From: Candidatus Limnocylindria bacterium
Lineage (GTDB): Bacteria > Chloroflexota > Limnocylindria > P2-11E
Assembly (NCBI GenBank): GCA_035651155.1
Contig: DASRGG010000021.1
Location: 339,752-403,751 of the forward strand
DNA length: 64,000 bases
Reading direction: 5' to 3'
A program made the translations under genes and the position numbers. The notes under the pieces were generated by a model that saw only the letters and a program-made list of their open reading frames with translations, was not told the DNA's origin and ran no database searches. This document shows, one piece after another, positions 54,446-64,000 of this stretch (its first letter is position 1; the number at the start of each line of letters is the position of its first letter).

Positions 54446-56341
54446 CTATTTCGCTGACCGCACGCCGCGCATGCGCTCTGCCGTGCGCATCGCCAGCGCC
54501 ATCACGGTCGTCATCGGATTCACGCCCGAGGCGCTCGGGAACGCGCTCGCGTCGGTCACGTAAAGACCGCGCACGCCCCAGACCCGGCCGTCGGGGTCGG
54601 CGACCGAGGACGCGCGATCCCGCCCGATGCGGCAGCTCGACATCTGATGTGCCGAGAAGAGCGTCACCCGGTTGGCGGCGATACCGCGCCGGCCGATCTC
54701 CGCCACGAGATCGTCGACCCGCGTCGCCTCGAGGTCGAGCGGCGGTGTGTGCAGAGTGAAGATGCGCCGCGCGCCGGCGGCGGCGTGGATCCGCGCGGCC
54801 TCGACCATCCCGCGCTCGAGGAGTGCGCGCTCGCTCGCGCCATTCACGTAGCTGACGAGCGGCTCCCCGTCGCGGTCGACCGTCACGCGCCCTGCATCGC
54901 GATCGCGCACGATCGCGATGAACGGCGCGACGTGGCGCGCTTCGGTCGCGCGACCCTGGTGCGCCGCCGCGCCCCACCAGGGGAACGAGGCCGCCAGGAT
55001 GCCCGGATACGCCTGCGGGACCTCGAGGCGGAAGCCGTGCGCGCCGTCGATCTCGGCGAACGCGCTCACGACGACCGACTGCGGCACGCCCGACCACACA
55101 CCGCCGAGGTCCTCGTCGTACACGCCGGAGGTGACGGACACCGGGTGCAGGTGCAGGCCGCGACCGGCCTGTCCGGACGCGATCCCCGATCGCAGCAGCA
55201 GCGCCGGTGAGTGGATCGACCCGCCCCCGAGGGCGATGAGCGGCGCGCGCACTCTCAGCTCACCGCCCTCGACCCGTGCGGTCACGCCGGTCACGGCTCC
55301 GCGCGCGGACTCGATGCGGCGCGCGTCGGTGCCGGCGAGGATCTCGGCGCCCGCGGCCGAGGCATCGGCGAGGAACGTGCGCGGCGCCGACTGCTTCGCG
55401 CCGCGACGGCAGCCGAGCGTGCAGTGCCCGCAGTCGCCGCAGCCCTTCACGTTGCGCGCGATCGTCGCCGGCTCGAGTCCGAGCGCGCTCGCGCCCCGCT
55501 CGAGGGCGGCGTTCGCGCCGTTGCGCGCGCTCTCGTCGGTGTCGACGTCGGACCGCGCCTCGACCGCCGCGTAGCACGCCGCGAGATCGTCGACGCCCGC
55601 GCGCCGCCACTCCTCGGCGACCGCCGGGCTGATGCGCAGCGAGGTGTTCCAGTTGACGACGGTACCGCCGCCGACCGCCGATCCCGCGAGCAGGGCGATG
55701 GCGCGATCCTGCGTCGCGGCGATGCCGCGATCGACGAAGAGCGCCGCGTAGCCCGCGAGCTCGCGCGAGTCAAAGGAGTCCTCGAACCGCGGCCGAGCGC
55801 GCTCGAGGATGACCACGCGCTTGCCGGCGCCCGCGAGCGTAGCGGCGGCGACGGCCCCGCCCGCGCCCGAGCCGATGACGCAGACGTCAGCCTCGATGAC
55901 CTCGCCGGCGCGCGGCACGCGCACGCGGAGCGTCGATGGCGACATGGGCGGCAGCGGCGGACGCGCGTAGCCCATCGCCGCGGCGTAGGGCGAGCCGTCG
56001 ACGCCATACGCATAGAGCAGGGTGAGGCGCTTCATGACCTGGAACGCGCGGCGCTTCAGCGCGAGCGGACTGGTCGCCCACCGCTTGAGATACGCCTCGC
56101 GCTCGTGGTGCGCGAGCGAGGAGAAGCGCGACGGACGGCCGGTGAGGATGAGATTGAGCGGCGGCGATTCGATGGTGTCGAGGAGCTGATCGAGCTCGGC
56201 GAGGAGCGCGGGCCGCCCGAGCGCGGTGACCTCGGCCCGGAGCAGCTCGGGCACGCCGAGCGCGGATGCGGAGGGAAGGCCATCGCCGCCGGGTACGAAG
56301 GTGTCGCAGATCGCGGCGAGCGCGCGTGCGCGGTCCGGCAC
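54446..56341 (-). CDS. GMC family FAD-dependent oxidoreductase with N-terminal gluconate-2-dehydrogenase-subunit-3-like extension
   Basis: ADVCVIGSGAGGAVAA (FAD GxGxxG), GMC core and C-terminal active-site region (HQMSSCRIG, GLYVTDASAFPSASGVNP). The first ~140 aa (ICDTFVPGGDGLPSASALGVPEL) resemble the small subunit family fused in frame. Confidence 0.75.
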   Translation of the reverse strand: MPDRARALAAICDTFVPGGDGLPSASALGVPELLRAEVTALGRPALLAELDQLLDTIESPPLNLILTGRPSRFSSLAHHEREAYLKRWATSPLALKRRAFQVMKRLTLLYAYGVDGSPYAAAMGYARPPLPPMSPSTLRVRVPRAGEVIEADVCVIGSGAGGAVAAATLAGAGKRVVILERARPRFEDSFDSRELAGYAALFVDRGIAATQDRAIALLAGSAVGGGTVVNWNTSLRISPAVAEEWRRAGVDDLAACYAAVEARSDVDTDESARNGANAALERGASALGLEPATIARNVKGCGDCGHCTLGCRRGAKQSAPRTFLADASAAGAEILAGTDARRIESARGAVTGVTARVEGGELRVRAPLIALGGGSIHSPALLLRSGIASGQAGRGLHLHPVSVTSGVYDEDLGGVWSGVPQSVVVSAFAEIDGAHGFRLEVPQAYPGILAASFPWWGAAAHQGRATEARHVAPFIAIVRDRDAGRVTVDRDGEPLVSYVNGASERALLERGMVEAARIHAAAGARRIFTLHTPPLDLEATRVDDLVAEIGRRGIAANRVTLFSAHQMSSCRIGRDRASSVADPDGRVWGVRGLYVTDASAFPSASGVNPMTTVMALAMRTAERMRGVRSAK

Positions 56342-56531: not shown

Positions 56532-56586
56532 ATGATTACCTCCGAGACATCAGAACGCCGGCAACCGGCCGGCGTTCAGTGCGCTG

Positions 56587-56659
56587 AGCGGAAGACGGGT
56601 CTCGAACCCGCGACCTCGTCCTTGGCAAGGACGCGTTCTACCAACTGAACTACTTCCGC
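56587..56659 (-). tRNA. tRNA-Gly (anticodon GCC)
   Basis: GCGGAAG/CTTCCGC acceptor, anticodon stem CGTCC/GGACG with loop TTGCCAA, T-arm GCGGG-TTCGAGA-CCCGT. Confidence 0.85.
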
Positions 56660-56687
56660 ATGCAGGCGAGACGCGACGCGACCCCAA

Positions 56688-56921
56688 TCATAAAACCTTG
56701 GGACGACCGACGCGCGCCGCGTATCGCTTCGGCGAACGGACGCGCAAAGCAGTCACACGTTTGAGATCCCGGATGCTGACGTATGCCTCGGGGTCACCCG
56801 CCCGCCTGGCCCGCGCCACTTTGCCCGCGGCTATCAGGCGATAGAGCGTTGCCCGCGACAGGCCGAACTGCCGCAGCGCGGCCCTGACCGTGAGCCAATT
56901 CCTTGTATCACGTTGTATCAT
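56688..56921 (-). CDS. AlpA/excisionase-family HTH DNA-binding protein
   Basis: 77 aa; RAALRQFGLSRATLYRLIAAGKVARARRAG is a phage-excisionase/AlpA-type HTH_17. Confidence 0.6.
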   Translation of the reverse strand: MIQRDTRNWLTVRAALRQFGLSRATLYRLIAAGKVARARRAGDPEAYVSIRDLKRVTALRVRSPKRYAARVGRPKVL

Positions 56922-56932
56922 GTTGTCTCAGT
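56903..56932. repeat. Three tandem decamers TTGTATCACG / TTGTATCATG / TTGTCTCAGT spanning the start codon of the AlpA-like gene
   Basis: Read directly: ccTTGTATCAcgTTGTATCAtgTTGTCTCAgt. Copy 2 contains the ATG (reverse strand). Confidence 0.5.
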
Positions 56933-56962
56933 CGAAACCTCTAGCCATTTTCCGTCTTCGCG

Positions 56963-57271
56963 GTGCAAGCGGCAACCGATAGCGAATCGGAGAATCTACT
57001 GAAGAACACGACGGCCCAGGGCGATGTCACGGAGTGGCAGGTCGCGGCGGCGCTCATGCGCCAGGGCCACAAATTGCTTCGTCCGCTCTCGTCAGCCACT
57101 CGCTACGACCTCCTGATCGATCACGAGGATGGCAGGTGCACGCGCGTCCAGTGCAAGACTGGCGTCTTGCGGAACGGTTGCGTCGTATTCCGCCTCTACA
57201 GCGTCAGCGGGCACAATGGCGGGTACCACTTAGCCTCATCGCATGGCACGTCGAACAGGAGAGCAAGAGCG
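56963..57271 (+). pseudogene. PD-(D/E)XK nuclease-like N-terminal fragment fused in frame to the downstream VOC gene
   Basis: GDVTEWQVAAALMRQGHKLLRPLSSATRYDLLIDHEDGRCTRVQCKT has the E...YDLI...RVQVKT spacing of small Hjc/endonuclease-like PD-(D/E)XK proteins. It runs without a stop into the VOC gene, which has its own RBS and ATG at 57272. Confidence 0.35.
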
Positions 57272-57700
57272 ATGACCACCAAGCTGAACGTCACCTCGGT
57301 CAAGGTCCTCGACCAGCACGAGGCGCTCGACTTCTACGTGAACAAGCTCGGCCTCGAGAAGGCCCAGGACATCAGGCAGGGGCCCTTCCGCTGGCTGACG
57401 GTGCGGTTCCCGGGCGACGAGGTCGAGATCTTCCTCGAGGAGCCAGGACCGCCTCTTCACGACGAGGCGACCGCCGCGCAGCTGCGGGAGCTCATCGCCA
57501 AGGGCGCCATGAGCTCGCTCGTTTTCTACTCGGACGACGTACGGGGTCTTTACGAGACGCTGCAGGCGCGCGGCGTGAGCGACTTCACCCAGGAGCCGAT
57601 CGAGCACGCCTACGGGACCGACATGGGACTCCGCGATCCCTTCGGCAACGCGATCCGGGTCCTCCAGCCGCCGAAGTCCCGGCAGAAAGCGACGGTGTGA
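57272..57700 (+). CDS. VOC family protein (glyoxalase/bleomycin resistance fold)
   Basis: MTTKLNVTSVKVLDQHEALDFYVNKLGLEK...FRWLTV...IFLEE...FYSDDVRGLYETLQARGV...DPFGN is a paired beta-alpha-beta-beta-beta module pattern; AGGAG RBS upstream. Confidence 0.75.
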   Translation: MTTKLNVTSVKVLDQHEALDFYVNKLGLEKAQDIRQGPFRWLTVRFPGDEVEIFLEEPGPPLHDEATAAQLRELIAKGAMSSLVFYSDDVRGLYETLQARGVSDFTQEPIEHAYGTDMGLRDPFGNAIRVLQPPKSRQKATV

Positions 57701-57702
57701 CG

Positions 57703-58161
57703 ATGCCCGCGAAGAAGACCGCGACAAAGACCGGTGCCAAGCGCGAGCGCGGGTCGGGCCTCACCGCCGAGGAGAAGGCCGCCATGCGGGAGACGCTCGC
57801 GGACGAGAAGGCGAGAGCGAAGGGCGTCGAGGGCGAGAAGCTGCTTCTCCAGAAGATCGCCGCGATGAAGGAGCCCGACCGCGGCATGGCAAAGCGCATC
57901 CACGCGATCGTGAAGGCGAATGCTCCGAGCCTCACGCCAACTACCTGGTACGGGATGCCGGCGTATTCGAAGAACGGCAAGGCCGTCCTCTTCTTCCAGG
58001 ACGCTGCCAAGTTCAAAGCGCGCTACGCGACGCTGGGCTTCAACGACATCGCGACGCTGGACGACGGAGAGATGTGGCCGACGTCGTTCGCGCTCAAGGA
58101 GATGAACGCGGCGACCGAGGCGAAGATCGCGGCGCTCGTGAAGAAGGCGGTGCGGTCCTAG
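57703..58161 (+). CDS. DUF1801 domain protein (YdhG-like)
   Basis: 152 aa; Lys-rich N-terminus, then KRIHAIVKANAPSLTPTTWYGMPAYSKNGKAVLFF typical of DUF1801. Confidence 0.6.
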   Translation: MPAKKTATKTGAKRERGSGLTAEEKAAMRETLADEKARAKGVEGEKLLLQKIAAMKEPDRGMAKRIHAIVKANAPSLTPTTWYGMPAYSKNGKAVLFFQDAAKFKARYATLGFNDIATLDDGEMWPTSFALKEMNAATEAKIAALVKKAVRS

Positions 58162-58543
58162 AACGCGTCTTCGCGACGTTGTGCGCGACGGCGGCCTTCA
58201 CGATCACCTTGAGCGCCCGCTCATCGAGCTTCTCGTTCTCAGAGACGTCGATCGCCCGCGACTTGCCCAAGAGCTGGGCATTGAAGAGCTTCTTCGGGTC
58301 CGGAAGGCTCGAGCCCGCCGGGAACGAGAGCCGCACTCGCTCCTTGAGGACGACCCCGATGCACACTATCCCGTCGTGCGACCAGACGGCGGAGCCGAGC
58401 GGATCGCTGGGTCGCTTCCACTTCACGTCCTCCGCAATGTCGGGGTCCGCGTCGTGGACGATCTTTCGGAGCCTCGCCAGCGTCGCGCCGCGCCGACCGG
58501 GCGTCTTCGCGATCAGCGCGTCGACCGGGCCCGCTCGTGTCAC
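58158..58543 (-). CDS. DUF1801 domain protein (second, convergent copy)
   Basis: VDALIAKTPGRRGATLARLRKIVHDADPDIAEDVKWKRPSDPLGSAVWSHDGIVCIGVVLKERVRLSFPAG. Likely GTG start; stops of the two DUF1801 genes overlap tail-to-tail by 2 nt. Confidence 0.5.
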
Positions 58544-58567
58544 GGGAGCGTCACCGAAACGACACTG

Positions 58568-58615
58568 TGCCGAGGGCCAGGATCGAACTGGCGACACATG
58601 GTTCTTCAGACCATG
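58568..58615 (-). other. tRNA-like fragment (anticodon arm with GAA, variable loop, T-arm, 3' acceptor strand; D-arm absent)
   Basis: Reverse strand: CATGGT-CTGAAGA-ACCATG, TGTC, GCCAG-TTCGATC-CTGGC, CCTCGGC-A. The 5' side has only GCCGA and no D-arm, so it is a pseudo-tRNA or att remnant, not a functional tRNA-Phe. Confidence 0.35.
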
Positions 58616-58722
58616 CGTCTCGGATTCGGCCAGAACGCTAGCAAATCGACGACGGGGCGCACGACGACGCATTGTCCAGCAACGAATTGTCCGACGAGCG
58701 TCGCGCGCTCCATGCCGCCTTG

Positions 58723-59268
58723 TCAGCCTGATTTCTCGATCTGCGCGATCGCGTTCTTCGCCATCTCGTTCAACGTGTCCACCGCCTCTTCGAGTGCCTG
58801 GCGCTTCTCGGTTGGCTTCGCAGTCGTGTCGCCCGCCTTGGCGTCGTTGAACGCGAGCGCGTATTGGTTGAAGGCAACAAAGACCTTCTGGTACTGGTCG
58901 ACGAACTGCTGCGAGTCGGTCTCGAGCGCGAGCTGGGCGCGCGCCTCGTTCACACCCTTCGACCCCTCCTGGAGCATGGCCGTGAGGCGCTTGTTCTTCG
59001 CGTCGTCGGTCTCGCCGCCATAGCCGAAGACCATGCCGACGGAGACGGACTGCATCGACCACGAGCCGAGGAGGAGTGGCTGCAGTGCAGCGCGCATGCG
59101 CGCGAGCTTGCCATCGCGCACCAAACGCCGGTCGCGGCGAGTGTCGCGCCGCTCCTCGAAGTAGGCCGCGAGCCAGAAGCCCGCGAGCGCGCCGAGCGCT
59201 GGACCGATGAGCGGCCACGCGGAAGCGATCCACCCCGTGACCGTCGAGATCAGCGCTGCAATGTCCAT
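58723..59268 (-). CDS. Small membrane-anchored hypothetical protein, third gene of the pAgo operon
   Basis: 181 aa; one N-terminal TM (AALISTVTGWIASAWPLIGPALGALAGFWLAAYF), then a soluble helical domain. ATG lies 10 nt downstream of the pAgo stop, same strand. Confidence 0.5.
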   Translation of the reverse strand: MDIAALISTVTGWIASAWPLIGPALGALAGFWLAAYFEERRDTRRDRRLVRDGKLARMRAALQPLLLGSWSMQSVSVGMVFGYGGETDDAKNKRLTAMLQEGSKGVNEARAQLALETDSQQFVDQYQKVFVAFNQYALAFNDAKAGDTTAKPTEKRQALEEAVDTLNEMAKNAIAQIEKSG

Positions 59269-59278
59269 CTTCGCAAGA

Positions 59279-60778
59279 TCAGATGTAGAACTTGAACTTG
59301 GCCTTGCGGTCCTTGACGTTCGGGTTGGCGACGAGGATCTCCCCCACCGCGTCTGAGAATCCGACGGTGACGGGCTCGACCTCGCCCAGGCGACACGCGT
59401 TGTAGTTCAGCTTGGTCAGACCAAAGATGTCCGATACCACCTGATCGAGGTCAGCCTCGCCGTGCTGCACATCGATCTGGAGCGGCAGTGGCGTCTCCCA
59501 CCCGTCGTACGTTCCGAGGCGCGGCTTGTAACCCGTCGTCCAGAGGAACGCGGTTCGGTCCGAGACGCGCCAGTACGTACCGCGGACCACGGGAAGATGA
59601 CCCTCGCGGAAGAGACGCACGTCGAAACGTTCCTGACGGACACGAACGCCGATGAGGCGCACGCCCTCCGGGCAGGCCTCCTGGAAGCCCGCGAACTCGT
59701 CGGCGTTCAGGCCCGACCTCGCGTGCAGGAACAGCTCCGTGAGCGGCTGGCCACCGAGCTCCTTGTAGGTGTCCAGCGCGCCGGTCAGGAGATCGCGCGC
59801 GCCGTCGTAGCTCAGGTGGTACTGGTTGCGCTCGGGCGAGTACCAGGGCCCGAACTCGCCCATGAAGACGATGCCGTCGCCACTGTCGAGGAACATCTGA
59901 GCGGCGCACGCGGCCACAGGGCTATCTGAACTCGGATCACGCCGGCGGTAGGCCAGTCCGAGGTAGCAAACACCCGGGCGCGCCGTGCTCAAGCGCCATG
60001 GCTTCCCGCCGGCCTTGTAGTAGAGCGCGACACCGAGGTTCCACGCGCGGTCGCACAGCGGCGTCAGGCTGCGCTCGCCGAACTTGTACTCGTCTGACAG
60101 TCGCAGAGTGGACTCGCGCACGATCTGGATCGGAATGCCGTACTTCATCGCACGCGCCTTGATCTGCCGTCTGAAGTCGACGGAGTACAGGAACACGTCG
60201 GGGCTCGTGTCATCGAACAGTCCCGTCTGGCCCGCCTTGCGGACGCGAACGTCCTTGGCCGCCATGCGCTCACCGGAACCGAACGGCACGCGCGAGAGCG
60301 GGCGGCAGTTCTTGTACACGAGGTCGGGAACGACGCACACGATCACATCGACGGGGTCGTCGTGACGCTCGAAGGCGGCGATCGCGTCCAGGTAGCGCTC
60401 CACGACCGCCGCGGCGCGCTTGTGCTCGTCCTTCTGGATGGCCTCGGCGAGGAGCGCGTCCTCATCGACGATGCGCTCGAGCGTCGGCTCTTCGGGAAGG
60501 ACGCAGCCGAAGGCGGGCTCGAAGCCGGGGAACATCGGCCAGAGCGCGGCGCTCCGACCCTCGGGCGGCATCGCGGCACTTTGCAGCCGCTTGGTCAGCG
60601 CCTTGAACGCATCCGTGCCGCGTGGCGTGCCGACGAGGCCCCACGAGACGTTGCGTCGATGCCCCGGCATGTCCGCGTCGAACGCGCCGAAGATGCTCAG
60701 GCCGTCGCGCGGATCCGAGACCGGCTGCGTGTAGCGGAACTCCAGGGGTGGCTCTGGGAGCATCCGAAGATCGATCAC
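59279..60778 (-). CDS. Short prokaryotic Argonaute (MID-PIWI, catalytically inactive), SPARTA-type
   Basis: 499 aa. Near-colinear to the remembered SPARTA short pAgo: DPRDGLSIFG, PMFPGFEPAFGC, YKNCRP, YYKAGGKPWRL, RPGVCYLGLAYRRR, AACAAQMFLDSGDGIVFMGEFGPWYSPE, LTKLNYNACRLGEVEPVTVGFSDAVGEIL, terminal KFKFYI. No DEDX catalytic tetrad. GTG start overlaps the TIR-APAZ stop (GTGA). Confidence 0.9.
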   Translation of the reverse strand: MIDLRMLPEPPLEFRYTQPVSDPRDGLSIFGAFDADMPGHRRNVSWGLVGTPRGTDAFKALTKRLQSAAMPPEGRSAALWPMFPGFEPAFGCVLPEEPTLERIVDEDALLAEAIQKDEHKRAAAVVERYLDAIAAFERHDDPVDVIVCVVPDLVYKNCRPLSRVPFGSGERMAAKDVRVRKAGQTGLFDDTSPDVFLYSVDFRRQIKARAMKYGIPIQIVRESTLRLSDEYKFGERSLTPLCDRAWNLGVALYYKAGGKPWRLSTARPGVCYLGLAYRRRDPSSDSPVAACAAQMFLDSGDGIVFMGEFGPWYSPERNQYHLSYDGARDLLTGALDTYKELGGQPLTELFLHARSGLNADEFAGFQEACPEGVRLIGVRVRQERFDVRLFREGHLPVVRGTYWRVSDRTAFLWTTGYKPRLGTYDGWETPLPLQIDVQHGEADLDQVVSDIFGLTKLNYNACRLGEVEPVTVGFSDAVGEILVANPNVKDRKAKFKFYI

Positions 60779-62124
60779 GTGGTCTCCTCCAGCTCCTCGT
60801 CCCCCACGCCAGGCGTCACGTCCGTCTCGTCGAGCTCCTCCTCGTCGTTCTCGACGGGAAGGGGACCGGCTTCTTCCTCATTGATGCCGTCGGGCGCGGT
60901 GACCGTAAGCGGGATCGCGCGGATGGCCAGGCGACTCTGCGCACGCGAGGTGAGCACGATCTCGCCTTGAGCGTCGGCGAGGAAGGCGCAGCTTCCGAGC
61001 TGGCGGCTCAGCCACTCGTAGTTCCACCAGTCCTTGCACAGGCGCTTCCGCCGGCGGACGAGCTTCACGCCCTGGAGCGGAGTGCCATTGAGGTCCGCGA
61101 GGTATACGCGGTTGCGGAGCTGGATCATCGGCGTCCCGTAGCGGAAGAGCGCCGGTCGGAACTCGACGGCGAGGTGATAGCGGAAGCGCTCGACCCCGTT
61201 CGTGGTCCGCGCGGCGCGCTCGCCGACGGCCTTCACGTGCGTCTTTTCCCCGTCCCATCTCGTGAAGCGCAGTCGGTCGCCGGGGACGAGGCCGCTCGGG
61301 AAATAGACATACTCCTCGTTGGCCGACTCTCTGAGGCCCTTCTGAACGCAGTGGCTGCGCATGCCCTCCTTTAGAAGGACGGTAACGATGTCGCGCGCGA
61401 TCGTCCGCTGCTCGCGATCGTCGTTCTCGAGCCAGGGGATCTCTTCGACCTTGTCGACCTCGACGCCCTCGGGCGGGCCCTCGAACGCGCCGACCACGTA
61501 GTCGTTCTCGGCCCAGTACGTCCAGCTCGAGGCGATCTCCGGTGAGAGCTTCTCATGCAGCGTGATGCGGAGGACGCTGCCGGGTATGTCGGTGATGGGA
61601 AGCAGGTTCGTCCAGAGGCGCTCGGGCCGGCCCGACAGCCGCTCGCGTTCGTGCATGTACTCACGAACGGAGTCGCGCGCCGGCATGAACGTGCGCGGCG
61701 CGTCGACTGAGGTTAGTTTCTTCAGGAGCTGAACGAGGCCGTGAGCCCAGCTCGTGTGGAACGGGATGTATGTGAGATCCGAAAGCTGCCACGGCAGCTC
61801 GTGCGAGGGGAGTGCCTCGACGTTGAGCGGGATGATGAACTCCTGCTTCCTGGCCCGACCGATGTTGAGGGCGATCGTGCGTTCCTTGAGCGGGTTGTCC
61901 TTCTCCTTGGACGCCCGCGAAATGAGCGAGAGCATCCGGAAGGTGCGCTCGTGGAGCGCGCGCTCGATATCCCTGGGGTACGACTCTCCACCGAGGAGCT
62001 TCACGCGATCGCACCACACGCTGTAGCCCTCGCCCGAGAGCTTTAGCGTGAGCCACTCCGCGAGCGCGGCATCCTCGATCGCGTAGTTGATGAACAGGTG
62101 GTCGCGCTCCAGGGCCTCGCCCAC
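60775..62124 (-). CDS. TIR-APAZ protein (SPARTA NADase partner of short pAgo)
   Basis: 449 aa. N-terminal TIR: LFINYAIEDAALAEWLTLKLSGEGYSVWCD, with the conserved catalytic Glu in NPLKERTIAL. APAZ region with KDWWNYEWLSRQLGSCAFLADAQGEIVL and an acidic C-terminal tail. GGAGG RBS 5 nt before the GTG. Confidence 0.9.
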   Translation of the reverse strand: MGEALERDHLFINYAIEDAALAEWLTLKLSGEGYSVWCDRVKLLGGESYPRDIERALHERTFRMLSLISRASKEKDNPLKERTIALNIGRARKQEFIIPLNVEALPSHELPWQLSDLTYIPFHTSWAHGLVQLLKKLTSVDAPRTFMPARDSVREYMHERERLSGRPERLWTNLLPITDIPGSVLRITLHEKLSPEIASSWTYWAENDYVVGAFEGPPEGVEVDKVEEIPWLENDDREQRTIARDIVTVLLKEGMRSHCVQKGLRESANEEYVYFPSGLVPGDRLRFTRWDGEKTHVKAVGERAARTTNGVERFRYHLAVEFRPALFRYGTPMIQLRNRVYLADLNGTPLQGVKLVRRRKRLCKDWWNYEWLSRQLGSCAFLADAQGEIVLTSRAQSRLAIRAIPLTVTAPDGINEEEAGPLPVENDEEELDETDVTPGVGDEELEETT

Positions 62125-62254
62125 GTCCCCTCCGTCGACGGTCGAACTTACGTTCTATCGTAGGTCGGTCGGGTCATCCGAGTAAAGAGACTGTCAAGCG
62201 ATAATTGAGCTTACCGCTAGACTCCAGCCCGCGTGAGCCTCTCCAGTTCTTTCG

Positions 62255-63913
62255 ATGCCAGCGTCGCGGACTAAGAAGCCAACCGCGTCGCCTGGACGAT
62301 CCCCGCGCATCGCGGCGCTCACGGTCTTCCTCCTCCGCCGCGAGATCGAAGACGCGAGGCAGGCACTTGGCGGACGTATCGCCGAGGAGTTTGGGGAAGT
62401 CGAGCTCCGACGGCTGCCGATCGACGCCCGCCTATTCGTGCGTCGCAGCGTCGTCCGCCACCCGTGGTGGGAGTCGTTTTTCGCGAGCGTGACGCGCGAA
62501 CCGCTGGTCGTCAAGGCATCGACCGCTGGCGCGATCCTCTTCGTCACGGTTGCGAAGCAGTTGTTCGCGTTCACCTTTGGCACCGGCCGCTTCGCCCTGG
62601 ACCCGTCGAGTTACGAGCGTGACTTCGGACTGCGCGTGACCCTCAATGCCGTTGACCCGCGGGCGCTGCGCAGTATCGACATGCAGACCGTTGAGGAACT
62701 CACCCTCTTCACGCAGCGACAGGCATCGCGCAGCTCCGGCCTCGAGGTCTTCCAACTCGACGAGATCCGCGACATGCTCCGCGGCGTCGTCGGTCAACCC
62801 AAGGACCCGAGTCTCGCGCAGCTCCTCGCGGGTTCCGACCGGCTAGCGCTGCGTGCGCGTGTCAGGCTGACCGACCTGGCCACGCTATGCGAGCGTCTCC
62901 AAGAGCTCTACGGCTCGAATGTCTACAAGGACGCCTTCGGCTTCATCGATCAAATGCGACGCGTCACTGAACCCGATTTGCTCGCGTCGCTCGACGAGCG
63001 GCTGGTTCAGGCGCTTGAAGAACCCGAAGACGCCACGCTTCACATGGCTCCGCCAGAGCCGATCGACTGGGAAGACTTCGGCGGGTACCGCTACGAGCCG
63101 ATCGACAAGGATGCTCCGCCACGTGGCGACCTCGACGTGGTCGAACTGGTCGAGACCTTCGAGGAAGCGCGCAAGCGTTCGCTGGAGCTGGACGATCTGA
63201 GGAAGCGCGTGCGCGTGGTGAGCCTCTCGGCCGCAACCGGTCAGCCGGCGCATCACTGGTCTCTCTACGACACGATGGTGACGGAGTTCGCCGTCGGCGA
63301 TCAACGCTACGTGCTCAGCGGCGGTGACTGGTTCGAAGTCAGTGCGACCTTCGCCGAGCAAACTGCAGCGGCAGTCAACGCGCTGCCCACCTCGGCGATC
63401 GCCTTTCCTAGTTCACCGAAGGGTGAGGTAGAGGCCCAATACCTCACACGGGCCGTGCCGCTGCTCGAGGCGGGCGAGGGTATCGGTTACGCGCTGATGG
63501 ACCAGAAGCTGGTCGCGTGCACCGGCGCCCCCTCGCGGATCGAGGTGTGTGATCTGCTCAACGAGCTCAAGCAATTCATCCACGTGAAGCGCAGGACGGC
63601 GTCAGCCACGCTTAGCCACCTCTTCGCTCAAGGCACGACTTCGGCGACGGCGTTCATCGGGGATCGGGGGTTCCGCCTGGCAGCACGTGACGAACTACCC
63701 GCGGCGTGGGATGCCGCCGCGATCTTTCCCGAGGACCAGCCCATCGCGGGCGAATACACGGTGACGTACGCCGTGATCGCGCGAGGCAACGGGCCCCTCG
63801 GGGAGACTCTTCCTTTCTTCAGCCAGGTCAACCTGACGCATGCGTCCCGCATCCTGCGCACGATGGGCTTTGCCGTCGAACTCGCGCACATCGAGGAGAC
63901 ACCGGCGCCGTAA
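62255..63913 (+). CDS. Large hypothetical protein, TIGR04141/DUF6119-like ('sporadically distributed' defence-island protein), possible PD-(D/E)XK-like C-terminal core
   Basis: 552 aa, divergent from the SPARTA operon with an AT-richer 130-nt spacer. C-terminal GDWFE...RIEVCDLLNELKQFIHVKR resembles a D...E-x-K nuclease motif. Family assignment is from memory only. Confidence 0.45.
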   Translation: MPASRTKKPTASPGRSPRIAALTVFLLRREIEDARQALGGRIAEEFGEVELRRLPIDARLFVRRSVVRHPWWESFFASVTREPLVVKASTAGAILFVTVAKQLFAFTFGTGRFALDPSSYERDFGLRVTLNAVDPRALRSIDMQTVEELTLFTQRQASRSSGLEVFQLDEIRDMLRGVVGQPKDPSLAQLLAGSDRLALRARVRLTDLATLCERLQELYGSNVYKDAFGFIDQMRRVTEPDLLASLDERLVQALEEPEDATLHMAPPEPIDWEDFGGYRYEPIDKDAPPRGDLDVVELVETFEEARKRSLELDDLRKRVRVVSLSAATGQPAHHWSLYDTMVTEFAVGDQRYVLSGGDWFEVSATFAEQTAAAVNALPTSAIAFPSSPKGEVEAQYLTRAVPLLEAGEGIGYALMDQKLVACTGAPSRIEVCDLLNELKQFIHVKRRTASATLSHLFAQGTTSATAFIGDRGFRLAARDELPAAWDAAAIFPEDQPIAGEYTVTYAVIARGNGPLGETLPFFSQVNLTHASRILRTMGFAVELAHIEETPAP

Positions 63914-64000
63914 GTGGTCGCCTTCGTCCACCTGCAAGCGGTCGGCGGTGGCGAAGCTGTTAGCCCGCTCGGCGAAGGCGAGGGGCACGAGGGCTCGGAT

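What the first reader, a model, noticed from the sequence alone, without database searches (positions are those of the whole stretch)
58723..59268. Possible third gene in the SPARTA operon: a single-pass membrane protein 10 nt downstream of the pAgo
Canonical SPARTA is two genes. Here a 181-aa ORF (one N-terminal TM helix, then a ~150-aa soluble helical domain) starts 10 nt after the pAgo stop on the same strand. Nothing resembling a terminator lies in between. A membrane-anchored accessory could act as an additional effector or localisation factor, or it may be unrelated cargo.
Basis: seen in the sequence. Interest (0 to 1): 0.6.

Follow-up and report, generated by a model that had tools for sequence, protein, structure and literature searches.

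The report
Membrane-protein cargo gene behind SPARTA
The 181-codon ORF right after the SPARTA Argonaute gene is a real gene for a small membrane-anchored helical protein of an undescribed family, but comparison with about 90 related loci shows it is lineage-specific island cargo and not a third SPARTA component.

Summary
ORF 58723-59268 (-) starts 10 nt after the short-pAgo stop. Its codon-position GC matches the SPARTA genes. Its start codon aligns with the start of the closest full-length homologue. dN/dS against a sister locus is 0.17. AlphaFold2 (pLDDT 95.5) predicts an N-terminal hydrophobic anchor running into an all-helical domain, and charge bias places that domain in the cytoplasm.

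The "third SPARTA gene" reading is not supported as a general claim:
- A family HMM finds no member in 76 other pAgo loci that have enough downstream sequence (71 with pAgo at least 50% identical).
- The closest syntenic island (pAgo 86%) has unrelated DNA in exactly this slot.
- In the only other locus that carries the gene (pAgo 95%) it has a frameshift and a premature stop, while both SPARTA genes are intact.
- Seven other family members with readable context lie nowhere near a pAgo. They sit in integrase-bearing elements or beside other defence genes. One overlaps a RosmerTA antitoxin (RmrA) gene.

The gene is the last one before a tRNA-Phe 3' remnant, which is probably the island's att site. 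Best reading: portable island cargo, probably read through from SPARTA, possibly a membrane-acting toxin or exclusion factor (weakly supported). The family has no Pfam, NCBIfam, PHROG or PADLOC model. Interest is modest.

The parts
58723..59268 (-). orf181: gene for a 181-aa membrane-anchored helical protein of an undescribed family
   Evidence: ORF and sequence. GC3 0.87. dN/dS 0.17 against L011. 84 homologous representatives. No Pfam, PADLOC, PHROG or NCBIfam model.
59158..59265 (-). Codons 2-37: hydrophobic N-terminal anchor (helix 2-15, Trp-Pro kink, TM helix about 17-37) carrying G21xxxG25xxxG29
   Evidence: AlphaFold2 secondary structure. Family statistics: 63/70 members have an N-terminal TM segment and 57/70 a small-xxx-small-xxx-small motif; net charge is -0.6 before and +2.8 after the TM.
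58726..59157 (-). Codons 38-181: Arg-rich juxtamembrane stretch and helical bundle, predicted cytoplasmic. Family-conserved R56, R58, E115 and the G-E-T motif.
   Evidence: Alignment A1. Model pLDDT 96-98 over this part. Only non-significant resemblance to four-helix-bundle sensor domains.
59269..59278 (-). 10-nt spacer between the pAgo stop and the orf181 start, with no Shine-Dalgarno-like GGAGG
   Evidence: Sequence. The same 10-nt spacing is seen in L011. TIR-APAZ and pAgo both have GGAGG-type sites upstream.
59279..60778 (-). SPARTA short pAgo (MID-PIWI), 499 aa
   Evidence: PADLOC pAgo_I 3.4e-169. Full-length match to solved SPARTA pAgo chains 8qlo_B, 8ifk_B and 8fex_B.
60775..62124 (-). 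SPARTA TIR-APAZ, 449 aa; overlaps the pAgo start by 4 nt
   Evidence: Pfam TIR_2 1.7e-17. PADLOC Aga_TIR-PNTD1-PNTD2 6e-69. Solved TIR-APAZ chains match.
58692..59278 (-). Variable slot: the stretch holding orf181, replaced by 794 nt of unrelated DNA in the syntenic island L012
   Evidence: blastn: window-L012 homology stops at 59278 and resumes at 58691. tblastn and HMM find no orf181 relative in L012.
58565..58619 (-). tRNA-Phe(GAA) 3' remnant (anticodon arm, T arm, 3' acceptor strand), probably the att site at the end of the island
   Evidence: Rfam tRNA match of 18.7 bits, below the gathering score, with the D arm missing. ARAGORN calls no tRNA here. Conserved in L012 with a compensatory T-stem change. 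Independent contigs L002 and L003 end in or at it.
62255..63913 (+). DUF6119 gene, divergent from SPARTA; part of the same island
   Evidence: Pfam DUF6119 2e-131. Conserved next to SPARTA only in L012.
58094..58543 (-). Next same-strand gene (DUF1801), beyond the tRNA remnant and 180 nt after the orf181 stop
   Evidence: Pfam DUF1801 1.3e-14. GC3 frame plot. 86% nt identity to the called DUF1801 gene of L012.

Best explanation
orf181 is a genuine gene. It encodes a small membrane protein: a short N-terminal hydrophobic anchor with the N-terminus outside, then a roughly 145-residue cytoplasmic helical bundle. It belongs to a rare, undescribed family that behaves as a portable accessory gene of integrative elements and defence islands. 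In this Limnocylindria lineage it occupies the variable terminal slot of an integrase-bearing island, between the SPARTA pAgo stop codon and a tRNA-Phe att remnant. With a 10-nt gap and no terminator it is probably transcribed by read-through from the SPARTA promoter (inferred, not shown). It is not a component of SPARTA, which works as TIR-APAZ plus short pAgo here as elsewhere. Most likely function, weakly supported: an autonomous membrane-acting module, either a toxin/abortive-infection effector or an exclusion protein. It would oligomerise through its small-residue-zipper TM helix and be controlled through the cytoplasmic bundle. My sub-confidences: real gene 0.97; membrane-anchored helical protein 0.9; cargo rather than SPARTA component 0.85; co-transcribed with SPARTA 0.6; membrane toxin or exclusion function 0.3.
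For: Real gene: codon-position GC, dN/dS 0.17, 84 homologous representatives aligned over their full length, confident AlphaFold2 model.
Topology: 63/70 family members have an N-terminal TM segment; charge is -0.6 before and +2.8 after it.
Not a SPARTA part:
- The family HMM hits nothing in 76 other pAgo loci that have at least 560 nt downstream. Of these, 71 have pAgo at least 50% identical and 66 have a detectable TIR-APAZ.
- Across 5.8 billion clustered proteins the only close relatives are the gene itself and the L011 fragment, against more than 3,000 pAgo relatives at E<1e-50.
- In L012 (pAgo 86%, same integrase/DUF6119/DUF1801 island) homology ends at the pAgo stop and resumes 32 nt after the orf181 stop, with unrelated DNA in between.
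- In L011 (pAgo 95%) the copy has a +1 C insertion and Tyr126->TAG, while TIR-APAZ and pAgo are intact.
- The neighbours downstream of other SPARTA pAgos are a mixed set: RES toxin, R-M methylases and specificity subunit, trypsin-like peptidase, or nothing.
Portable cargo: seven other family members with context have no pAgo nearby.
- L015: alone, divergent from an XRE HTH gene followed by an AAA_25 gene.
- L101: alone in an integrase-bearing element.
- L016: after a zinc-ribbon ORF.
- L017: after a SEC-C-motif protein.
- L018: at a contig end.
- L019: overlapping the 3' end of an RmrA gene, beside a type III R-M system and a TIR gene.
- L020: fused to a multi-TM domain, near PDC-S73.

Island end: tRNA-Phe remnant at 58565-58619, with contig breaks there.
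Toxin lead: RmrA partners are diverse toxins, and one is a membrane-depolarising TM protein (PMC10440598; bioRxiv 10.1101/2022.05.11.491447).
Against: - The 10-nt spacing, the shared composition, and a dS (0.45) equal to that of pAgo (0.43) show the gene has travelled with SPARTA since the window/L011 ancestor and was under purifying selection for most of that time.
- Homology between the window and L011 covers just the three genes, and the flanks differ, so the trio may move as a unit.
- The L011 lesions come from one short-read assembly and could be errors.
- Only 8 of about 84 family contexts could be read.
- The toxin idea rests on one RmrA-adjacent locus and a TM motif. No family member matches any PADLOC RmrT model.
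- No transcription data exist.
Confidence: 0.65

Rival explanations
1. Lineage-specific SPARTA accessory. orf181 was recruited as a third component. It could be a membrane effector switched on by activated SPARTA, by analogy with SiAga2. It could instead tether the complex to the membrane where invading DNA enters.
For: The 10-nt gap is conserved in two loci. The gene is co-inherited with dS equal to the SPARTA genes and dN/dS 0.17. The three-gene block is shared with L011 in different flanks. There are precedents for pAgo systems with TM effectors (PMC11788926).
Against: SPARTA already carries its effector (TIR) fused to APAZ, and the solved active complexes are two-component. The gene is absent from 76 other loci and from the 86%-identical syntenic island. 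It is disrupted in L011 beside intact SPARTA genes. Homologues elsewhere have no pAgo nearby. It has no Shine-Dalgarno site, unlike both SPARTA genes. It matches no PADLOC pAgo-associated model.
Confidence: 0.12
2. Modulator of SPARTA toxicity. The protein would dampen or sequester the NADase to limit autoimmunity in this host, acting as an antitoxin-like brake.
For: Only the tight linkage and the purifying selection. Defence systems are sometimes followed by small regulators (general knowledge).
Against: The same comparative evidence as above applies. Loss of a brake in L011 should select against intact SPARTA, yet both SPARTA genes there show strong constraint, with dN/dS 0.06 and 0.17. Family members occur without any NADase partner.
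Confidence: 0.04
3. Cargo with a role unrelated to defence or toxicity, for example a membrane stress or housekeeping protein, or an element-maintenance factor, that merely hitch-hikes at the island end.
For: No catalytic or known functional motif. Fold matches are only to generic helical bundles. Several family members stand alone beside small unknown genes.
Against: All eight contexts contain mobile-element or defence markers: integrases, XRE/AAA_25, RmrA, type III R-M, TIR, PDC-S73, SPARTA. Each representative is a singleton on one to three contigs, which is not the pattern of a housekeeping gene.
Confidence: 0.17
4. Not a gene: a chance ORF in 66-70% GC DNA.
For: High-GC DNA produces many long spurious ORFs, and three other ORFs overlap this stretch.
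Against: Coding-type GC3 occurs only in this frame. dN/dS is 0.17. Full-length homologues go down to about 25% identity with conserved motifs. The AlphaFold2 model has pLDDT 95.5.
Confidence: 0.02

Closest known systems
Canonical SPARTA (TIR-APAZ + short pAgo; e.g. solved complexes 8fex, 8ifk, 8qlo)
   Same: The two upstream genes are a typical SPARTA pair with overlapping reading frames. They match the solved proteins over their full length.
   Different: Canonical SPARTA has no third gene. orf181 is absent from 76 other loci examined, so it is an add-on of one lineage, not a system feature.
SiAgo-Aga1-Aga2 of Sulfolobus islandicus (short pAgo with a separate transmembrane effector; PMC11788926)
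   Same: A membrane protein encoded with a short pAgo.
   Different: In SiAgo the TM protein is the only effector and is required. SiAga2's TM region is C-terminal (the SiAga2-deltaC construct lacks it), whereas orf181's is N-terminal. SPARTA already has a fused TIR effector. There is no conserved linkage and no sequence relation in PADLOC models.
RosmerTA (RmrA Zn-peptidase/HTH antitoxin + diverse RmrT toxins, including the membrane-depolarising RmrT-D5 of Gordonia phage Kita; PMC10440598)
   Same: One family member (P0131, L019) overlaps the 3' end of an RmrA gene (PADLOC 2e-108). This is a toxin-like position, and it is a small TM protein.
   Different: There is no RmrA next to orf181 in the window. 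No family member hits a PADLOC RmrT model. tblastn against phage genomes finds nothing. The L019 operon holds two further unknown genes that could equally be the toxin.
Four-helix-bundle sensor domains of chemoreceptors (Tar, Tsr, PcaY ligand-binding domains)
   Same: A TM helix running straight into an up-down helical bundle. These are the best Foldseek PDB matches.
   Different: The matches are not significant (E>=0.06, TM-score 0.3-0.46). Those domains are periplasmic, whereas the charge bias places orf181's bundle in the cytoplasm. There is no second TM helix or signalling domain.

Membership tests
SPARTA (as a system component) | TIR-APAZ protein encoded next to a short MID-PIWI pAgo | tested here: met
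   For the two upstream genes: Pfam TIR_2, PADLOC Aga_TIR-PNTD and pAgo_I, and matches to solved SPARTA chains.
SPARTA (as a system component) | The candidate component is conserved across related SPARTA loci | tested here: not met
   The family HMM finds no member in 76 other pAgo loci with at least 560 nt downstream. The gene is present only in the window lineage and, disrupted, in L011.
SPARTA (as a system component) | Co-transcription and physical or functional dependence | not testable with these tools
   Only indirect evidence: a 10-nt gap and no terminator pattern. RNA-seq, deletion and pull-down experiments are needed.
pAgo systems with a transmembrane effector (SiAgo/Aga2 type) | The TM protein is the system's effector, the pAgo partner lacks a fused enzymatic effector, and linkage is conserved | tested here: not met
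   A TIR effector is fused to APAZ here. Linkage is not conserved. orf181 matches no PADLOC pAgo-associated model. The TM position is opposite to SiAga2.
RosmerTA toxin (RmrT) | Encoded next to an RmrA (HTH + Zn-peptidase M78) antitoxin | tested here: not met
   There is no RmrA or M78 gene beside orf181 in the window. The feature is met only for the distant homologue P0131 in L019.
RosmerTA toxin (RmrT) | Match to a known RmrT model | tested here: not met
   0 of 70 family members hit an RmrT model in PADLOC at E<=0.01.
RosmerTA toxin (RmrT) | Toxicity that is neutralised by the partner protein | not testable with these tools
   Needs expression assays.
Phage holins / lysis proteins | Match to a holin family, or a lysis-cassette context | tested here: not met
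   In PHROGs, single members hit 'holin' or 'hol-like' families at E>1e-3, one of 70 each. No endolysin is nearby. No matches in phage genomes or viral contigs.
4HB_MCP-type sensor domain | Significant sequence or fold match, and a periplasmic location between two TM helices | tested here: not met
   No Pfam hit. Foldseek E>=0.06. One TM region only, and the bundle is on the positive (cytoplasmic) side.

The most novel reading that the evidence does not exclude
In this Limnocylindria lineage SPARTA has acquired a dedicated membrane partner. On target recognition the activated TIR-APAZ/pAgo oligomer would engage the cytoplasmic bundle of orf181. That would either localise NAD+ depletion to the membrane or open a glycine-zipper pore, adding membrane depolarisation to NADase-driven abortive infection. 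It would be a SPARTA/SiAgo-like hybrid. A related and somewhat likelier novel reading is that the family is a new class of small membrane toxin that different defence modules (RmrA, SPARTA) plug in as an interchangeable effector.
Probability: 0.12. Interest if true: 0.65.

Novelty: new member of a known kind. Interest (0 to 1): 0.3.

Why it matters
For SPARTA biology the result is mainly a caution. A tightly appended, apparently operonic gene is not a system component here, and the position just after the pAgo stop is a variable cargo slot at the end of an integrative island. This helps anyone annotating pAgo loci or cloning "native operons".

The secondary value is the family itself. It has at least 84 divergent representatives, a confidently predicted fold and no model in Pfam, NCBIfam, PHROGs or PADLOC. 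Every context I could read was a mobile-element or defence context, including a toxin-like position beside a RosmerTA antitoxin. If it proves to be a membrane toxin or exclusion factor, it would add one more small effector family to the defence-island repertoire. That would be useful but not surprising.

Tried and rejected
- **Word-indexed protein search:** orf181 found only itself. A search with the family alignment found only 4 proteins. The full HMMER scan was needed to find the family.
- **Family libraries:** Pfam, PADLOC, PHROGs and NCBIfam gave no family, on orf181 and on all 70 aligned members.
- **PDB sequence profile search:** only coiled-coil, designed-bundle and syntaxin noise.
- **Locus scans with family alignments:** The close-subfamily alignment A3 and a back-translated motif pattern found nothing in viral contigs.
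- **tblastn against plasmids and phages:** no match for orf181 or for P0151.
- **Spurious-ORF idea:** rejected on codon composition, dN/dS and homologues.
- **Terminator after orf181:** the hairpins seen at about 58560-58620 turned out to be the anticodon and T arms of a tRNA-Phe remnant.
- **L093 look-alike:** a 173-aa downstream protein with an N-terminal hydrophobic segment has an HKD-type motif by eye, so it looks PLD-like rather than a relative. No family search was run on it. The family HMM does not hit it.
- **Shine-Dalgarno comparison across homologues:** uninformative.

Full report
**What is there.** The window is 70% GC. The exact orf181 protein is named in NCBI as a hypothetical protein of a Candidatus Limnocylindria MAG. 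On the minus strand lie three genes:
- a 449-aa TIR-APAZ gene (60775-62124);
- a 499-aa short pAgo gene (59279-60778) that overlaps it by 4 nt;
- after a 10-nt spacer, a 181-codon ORF (58723-59268).

The first two are a standard SPARTA pair. The evidence is Pfam TIR_2, PADLOC Aga_TIR-PNTD1-PNTD2 (6e-69) and pAgo_I (3e-169), and full-length matches to solved SPARTA chains. The pattern scan finds no terminator or sigma-70-like promoter on this strand in 58000-62700, and a 10-nt spacer cannot hold one.

**Is the ORF a gene?** Yes.
- Its codon-position GC (0.64/0.45/0.87) matches pAgo and TIR-APAZ. The overlapping 379-aa ORF in another frame has no such pattern.
- Against the copy in the sister locus L011, dN/dS is 0.17 with dS 0.45. 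TIR-APAZ gives 0.17 and 0.35, and pAgo gives 0.06 and 0.43.
- A full HMMER scan of 1.84 billion representatives finds 84 relatives at E<=1e-3. Most are 165-225 aa and align from end to end.
- The ATG aligns with the start of the closest full-length homologue, P0123.

**What the protein looks like.** AlphaFold2 with the 70-sequence alignment gives pLDDT 95.5 and pTM 0.79. The model has helix 2-15, then one long helix 17-79, then helices 87-101, 105-114, 119-143 and 151-178.
- Residues 2-37 are hydrophobic and contain G21xxxG25xxxG29. They are followed by EERRDTRRDRRLVRD.
- Across the family, 63/70 members have an N-terminal TM segment (median start at residue 8) and 57/70 carry a small-xxx-small-xxx-small motif. 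Net charge is -0.6 before the TM and +2.8 after it.
- By the positive-inside rule the helical domain is cytoplasmic (inference).
- Conserved positions are R56, R58 and E115, with a G-E-T motif in the consensus.
- No model in Pfam, NCBIfam, PHROGs or PADLOC matches orf181 or the family.
- A PDB sequence profile search gives only coiled-coil noise.
- Foldseek finds nothing at E<=0.001. The best PDB matches are four-helix-bundle chemoreceptor sensor domains (TM-score 0.3-0.46). The best viral match is an uncharacterised 184-aa Siphoviridae protein (TM-score 0.60, E 0.06).

**Test 1: related SPARTA loci.** I collected pAgo relatives in three ways: direct look-up of the closest proteins (95, 86, 76 and 73% identity), the species-representative genomes, and JGI metagenomes (80 loci at 50-65% identity).
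- An HMM of the orf181 family was searched against all six-frame ORFs of every locus. It hits only the window's own lineage (L001-L003), L011, and the loci fetched through family members themselves.
- 76 other pAgo loci have at least 560 nt downstream of the pAgo. Of these, 71 have pAgo at least 50% identical and 66 have a recognisable TIR-APAZ. None carries a family member.
- What follows the pAgo elsewhere is heterogeneous. There is a HEPN_RES_NTD1-RES protein in three loci, a type III-like methylase in two, and single cases of HsdS, HsdM and a trypsin-like peptidase. The rest are unknowns or nothing.

**Test 2: the two closest loci.**
- **L012 (pAgo 86%)** is the same island, with integrase, divergent DUF6119, SPARTA and then DUF1801. 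Nucleotide homology to the window runs through TIR-APAZ and pAgo and stops at 59278, one base past the pAgo stop. It resumes at 58691, 32 nt after the orf181 stop. In between, L012 has 794 nt of unrelated, lower-GC3 DNA with a doubtful 158-codon ORF. orf181 therefore sits in a replaceable slot.
- **L011 (pAgo 95%)** has the orf181 homologue at the same 10-nt distance. It carries an extra C after nt 189 (a frameshift) and TAC->TAG at codon 126, while both SPARTA genes are intact. The gene caller found only a 54-aa fragment there.
- The low dN/dS together with two lesions suggests a recent pseudogene. Because this is a single short-read assembly, the lesions need read-level confirmation.
- Homology between the window and L011 covers just the three genes (62138-58735). 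The flanks differ, and L011 has an AbiEi-like gene upstream. This is the main point in favour of the trio behaving as a unit.

**Test 3: where the family lives.** Seven other members could be placed in context, and none has a pAgo nearby.

| Member | Identity to orf181 | Locus | Context |
|---|---|---|---|
| P0123 | 59% | L015 | Alone, divergent from an XRE HTH gene followed by an AAA_25 gene |
| P0122 | 61% | L016 | After a small zinc-ribbon ORF |
| P0124 | 34% | L017 | After a 296-aa SEC-C-motif protein |
| P0129 | 31% | L018 | Alone, at a contig end |
| P0150 | 26% | L101 | Alone in an element with an integrase and an MT-A70 methylase |
| P0128 | 30% | L020 | Fused to a multi-TM N-terminal domain, near a PDC-S73 (Mrr_cat-nSTAND3) gene |
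| P0131 | 29% | L019 | Overlaps the 3' end of an RmrA gene (PADLOC 2e-108), in a four-gene operon beside a type III R-M system and a ThsB-like TIR gene |

Each representative I checked is a singleton, or nearly so, on one to three contigs. Nothing is found in plasmid or phage genome collections or in IMG/VR.

**Island geography.**
- GC drops from about 0.73-0.76 to 0.62-0.68 at a tRNA-Gly gene (56586-56659) and stays low to the end of the window.
- At 58565-58619 (minus strand), 104 nt after the orf181 stop, lies the 3' two-thirds of a tRNA-Phe(GAA): anticodon arm with loop CUGAAGA, T arm and 3' acceptor strand. The D arm is missing. Rfam scores it 18.7 bits, below the gathering score of 29, and ARAGORN does not call it.
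- It is almost identical in L012, with a compensatory change in the T stem.
- Two independent assemblies of this genome break inside it or exactly at it.
- I read it as the att remnant that closes an integrase-bearing island of at least 10.6 kb (inference). The intact tRNA-Phe was not within the sequence available to me. orf181 is then the last gene of the island.

**How it most likely works.**
- *Shown:* orf181 is a real, selected gene for a membrane-anchored helical protein. It is physically appended to SPARTA in one lineage only. It is dispensable or replaceable in the nearest relatives. Its family lives in mobile and defence contexts without pAgo.
- *Inferred:* it is expressed by read-through from the SPARTA promoter and acts independently of SPARTA. 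Unlike the two SPARTA genes, which have GGAGG sites, it has no Shine-Dalgarno-like site, so translation may rely on re-initiation after the pAgo stop.
- *Speculative (about 0.3):* it is a membrane-acting toxin, abortive-infection effector or exclusion protein that oligomerises through its glycine/small-residue zipper. The only positive lead is the RmrA-adjacent homologue. RosmerTA pairs a Zn-peptidase antitoxin with diverse toxins of unknown function, and one of these was shown to depolarise membranes (PMC10440598).

**Comparison with known systems.**
- It is not a member of SPARTA. Conservation was tested and not met.
- It does not resemble the SiAgo/Aga2 arrangement. There the TM protein is the sole effector and its TM region is C-terminal (PMC11788926).
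- It is not a recognised RmrT or holin.
- It shares no significant fold match with chemoreceptor four-helix bundles.

**Verdict.** The finding is an ordinary feature of defence islands, and the protein family it exposes is undescribed.

Noticed in passing
window 58565-58619 (-): A tRNA-Phe(GAA) 3' remnant (anticodon arm, T arm, acceptor 3' strand, no D arm). It is conserved in L012 with a compensatory T-stem change. Contigs L002 and L003 end in or at it. It is probably the att site of the SPARTA-bearing island; the intact tRNA-Phe was not found in the sequence held.
   Followed up: partly
window 56586-56659 (-) and 56600-64000: GC falls from about 0.73-0.76 to 0.62-0.68 exactly at a tRNA-Gly(GCC) gene and stays low to the window end. 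With the tRNA-Phe remnant inside this stretch, two islands may have accreted in tandem (56.66-58.56 kb and 58.62 kb to beyond 64 kb).
   Followed up: partly
window 57703-58161 (+) and 58094-58543 (-): Two convergent DUF1801 genes overlap by about 68 nt. The minus-strand one was not called on the public contig (L001), but it has coding GC3, a Pfam hit and an 86%-identical called homologue in L012.
   Followed up: partly
window 62255-63913 (+): A 552-aa DUF6119 protein is encoded divergently from SPARTA. Among about 90 SPARTA loci it is conserved next to SPARTA only in L012 (74% aa). It may be another defence-island gene; its function is unknown.
   Followed up: partly
window 55454-55532 (+): ARAGORN calls a 79-nt tRNA-Ala(CGC) inside the 631-aa GMC-oxidoreductase ORF (54446-56341, minus strand). 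This is probably a false positive.
   Followed up: no
window 56963-57700 (+): A called 245-aa gene combines PDDEXK_5 and Glyoxalase Pfam hits. In L012 a PDDEXK_5 protein of only 106 aa is found. This may be a fusion or a mis-called start.
   Followed up: no
L013 2345-3337 and 7370-8362: An approximately 1-kb direct repeat (88.5% identity; small ORF plus a MerR gene) brackets the SPARTA pair and the two genes after it (a Trypsin_2-like gene and an opposite-strand 157-aa ORF). This suggests insertion into, or duplication of, a MerR module.
   Followed up: partly
L025, L028, L029 (56-70 nt after the pAgo stop): A 388-398-aa HEPN_RES_NTD1 + RES-domain protein recurs directly downstream of the pAgo in three SPARTA loci (76-87% identical to one another). 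This is a more recurrent 'third gene' than orf181.
   Followed up: partly
L019 5034-9412: A four-gene operon: an unknown 268-aa gene, RmrA (PADLOC 2e-108), the orf181-family member P0131, and an unknown 569-aa gene. It lies beside a type III R-M system and a ThsB-like TIR gene. It may be a RosmerTA variant with new toxin candidates.
   Followed up: partly
L020 459-1958: P0128 (499 aa) fuses an orf181-like module (residues 328-496) to a roughly 320-residue multi-pass membrane N-terminal domain. It lies 3 kb from a PDC-S73 (Mrr_cat-nSTAND3) gene.
   Followed up: no
L004 4155-7548: The closest species-representative genome relative (pAgo 53%) has a 613-aa partner protein that is longer at the N-terminus than TIR-APAZ. 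By eye this looks like a nuclease-type extension (REase-TIR-APAZ variant); no domain search was run on it.
   Followed up: no
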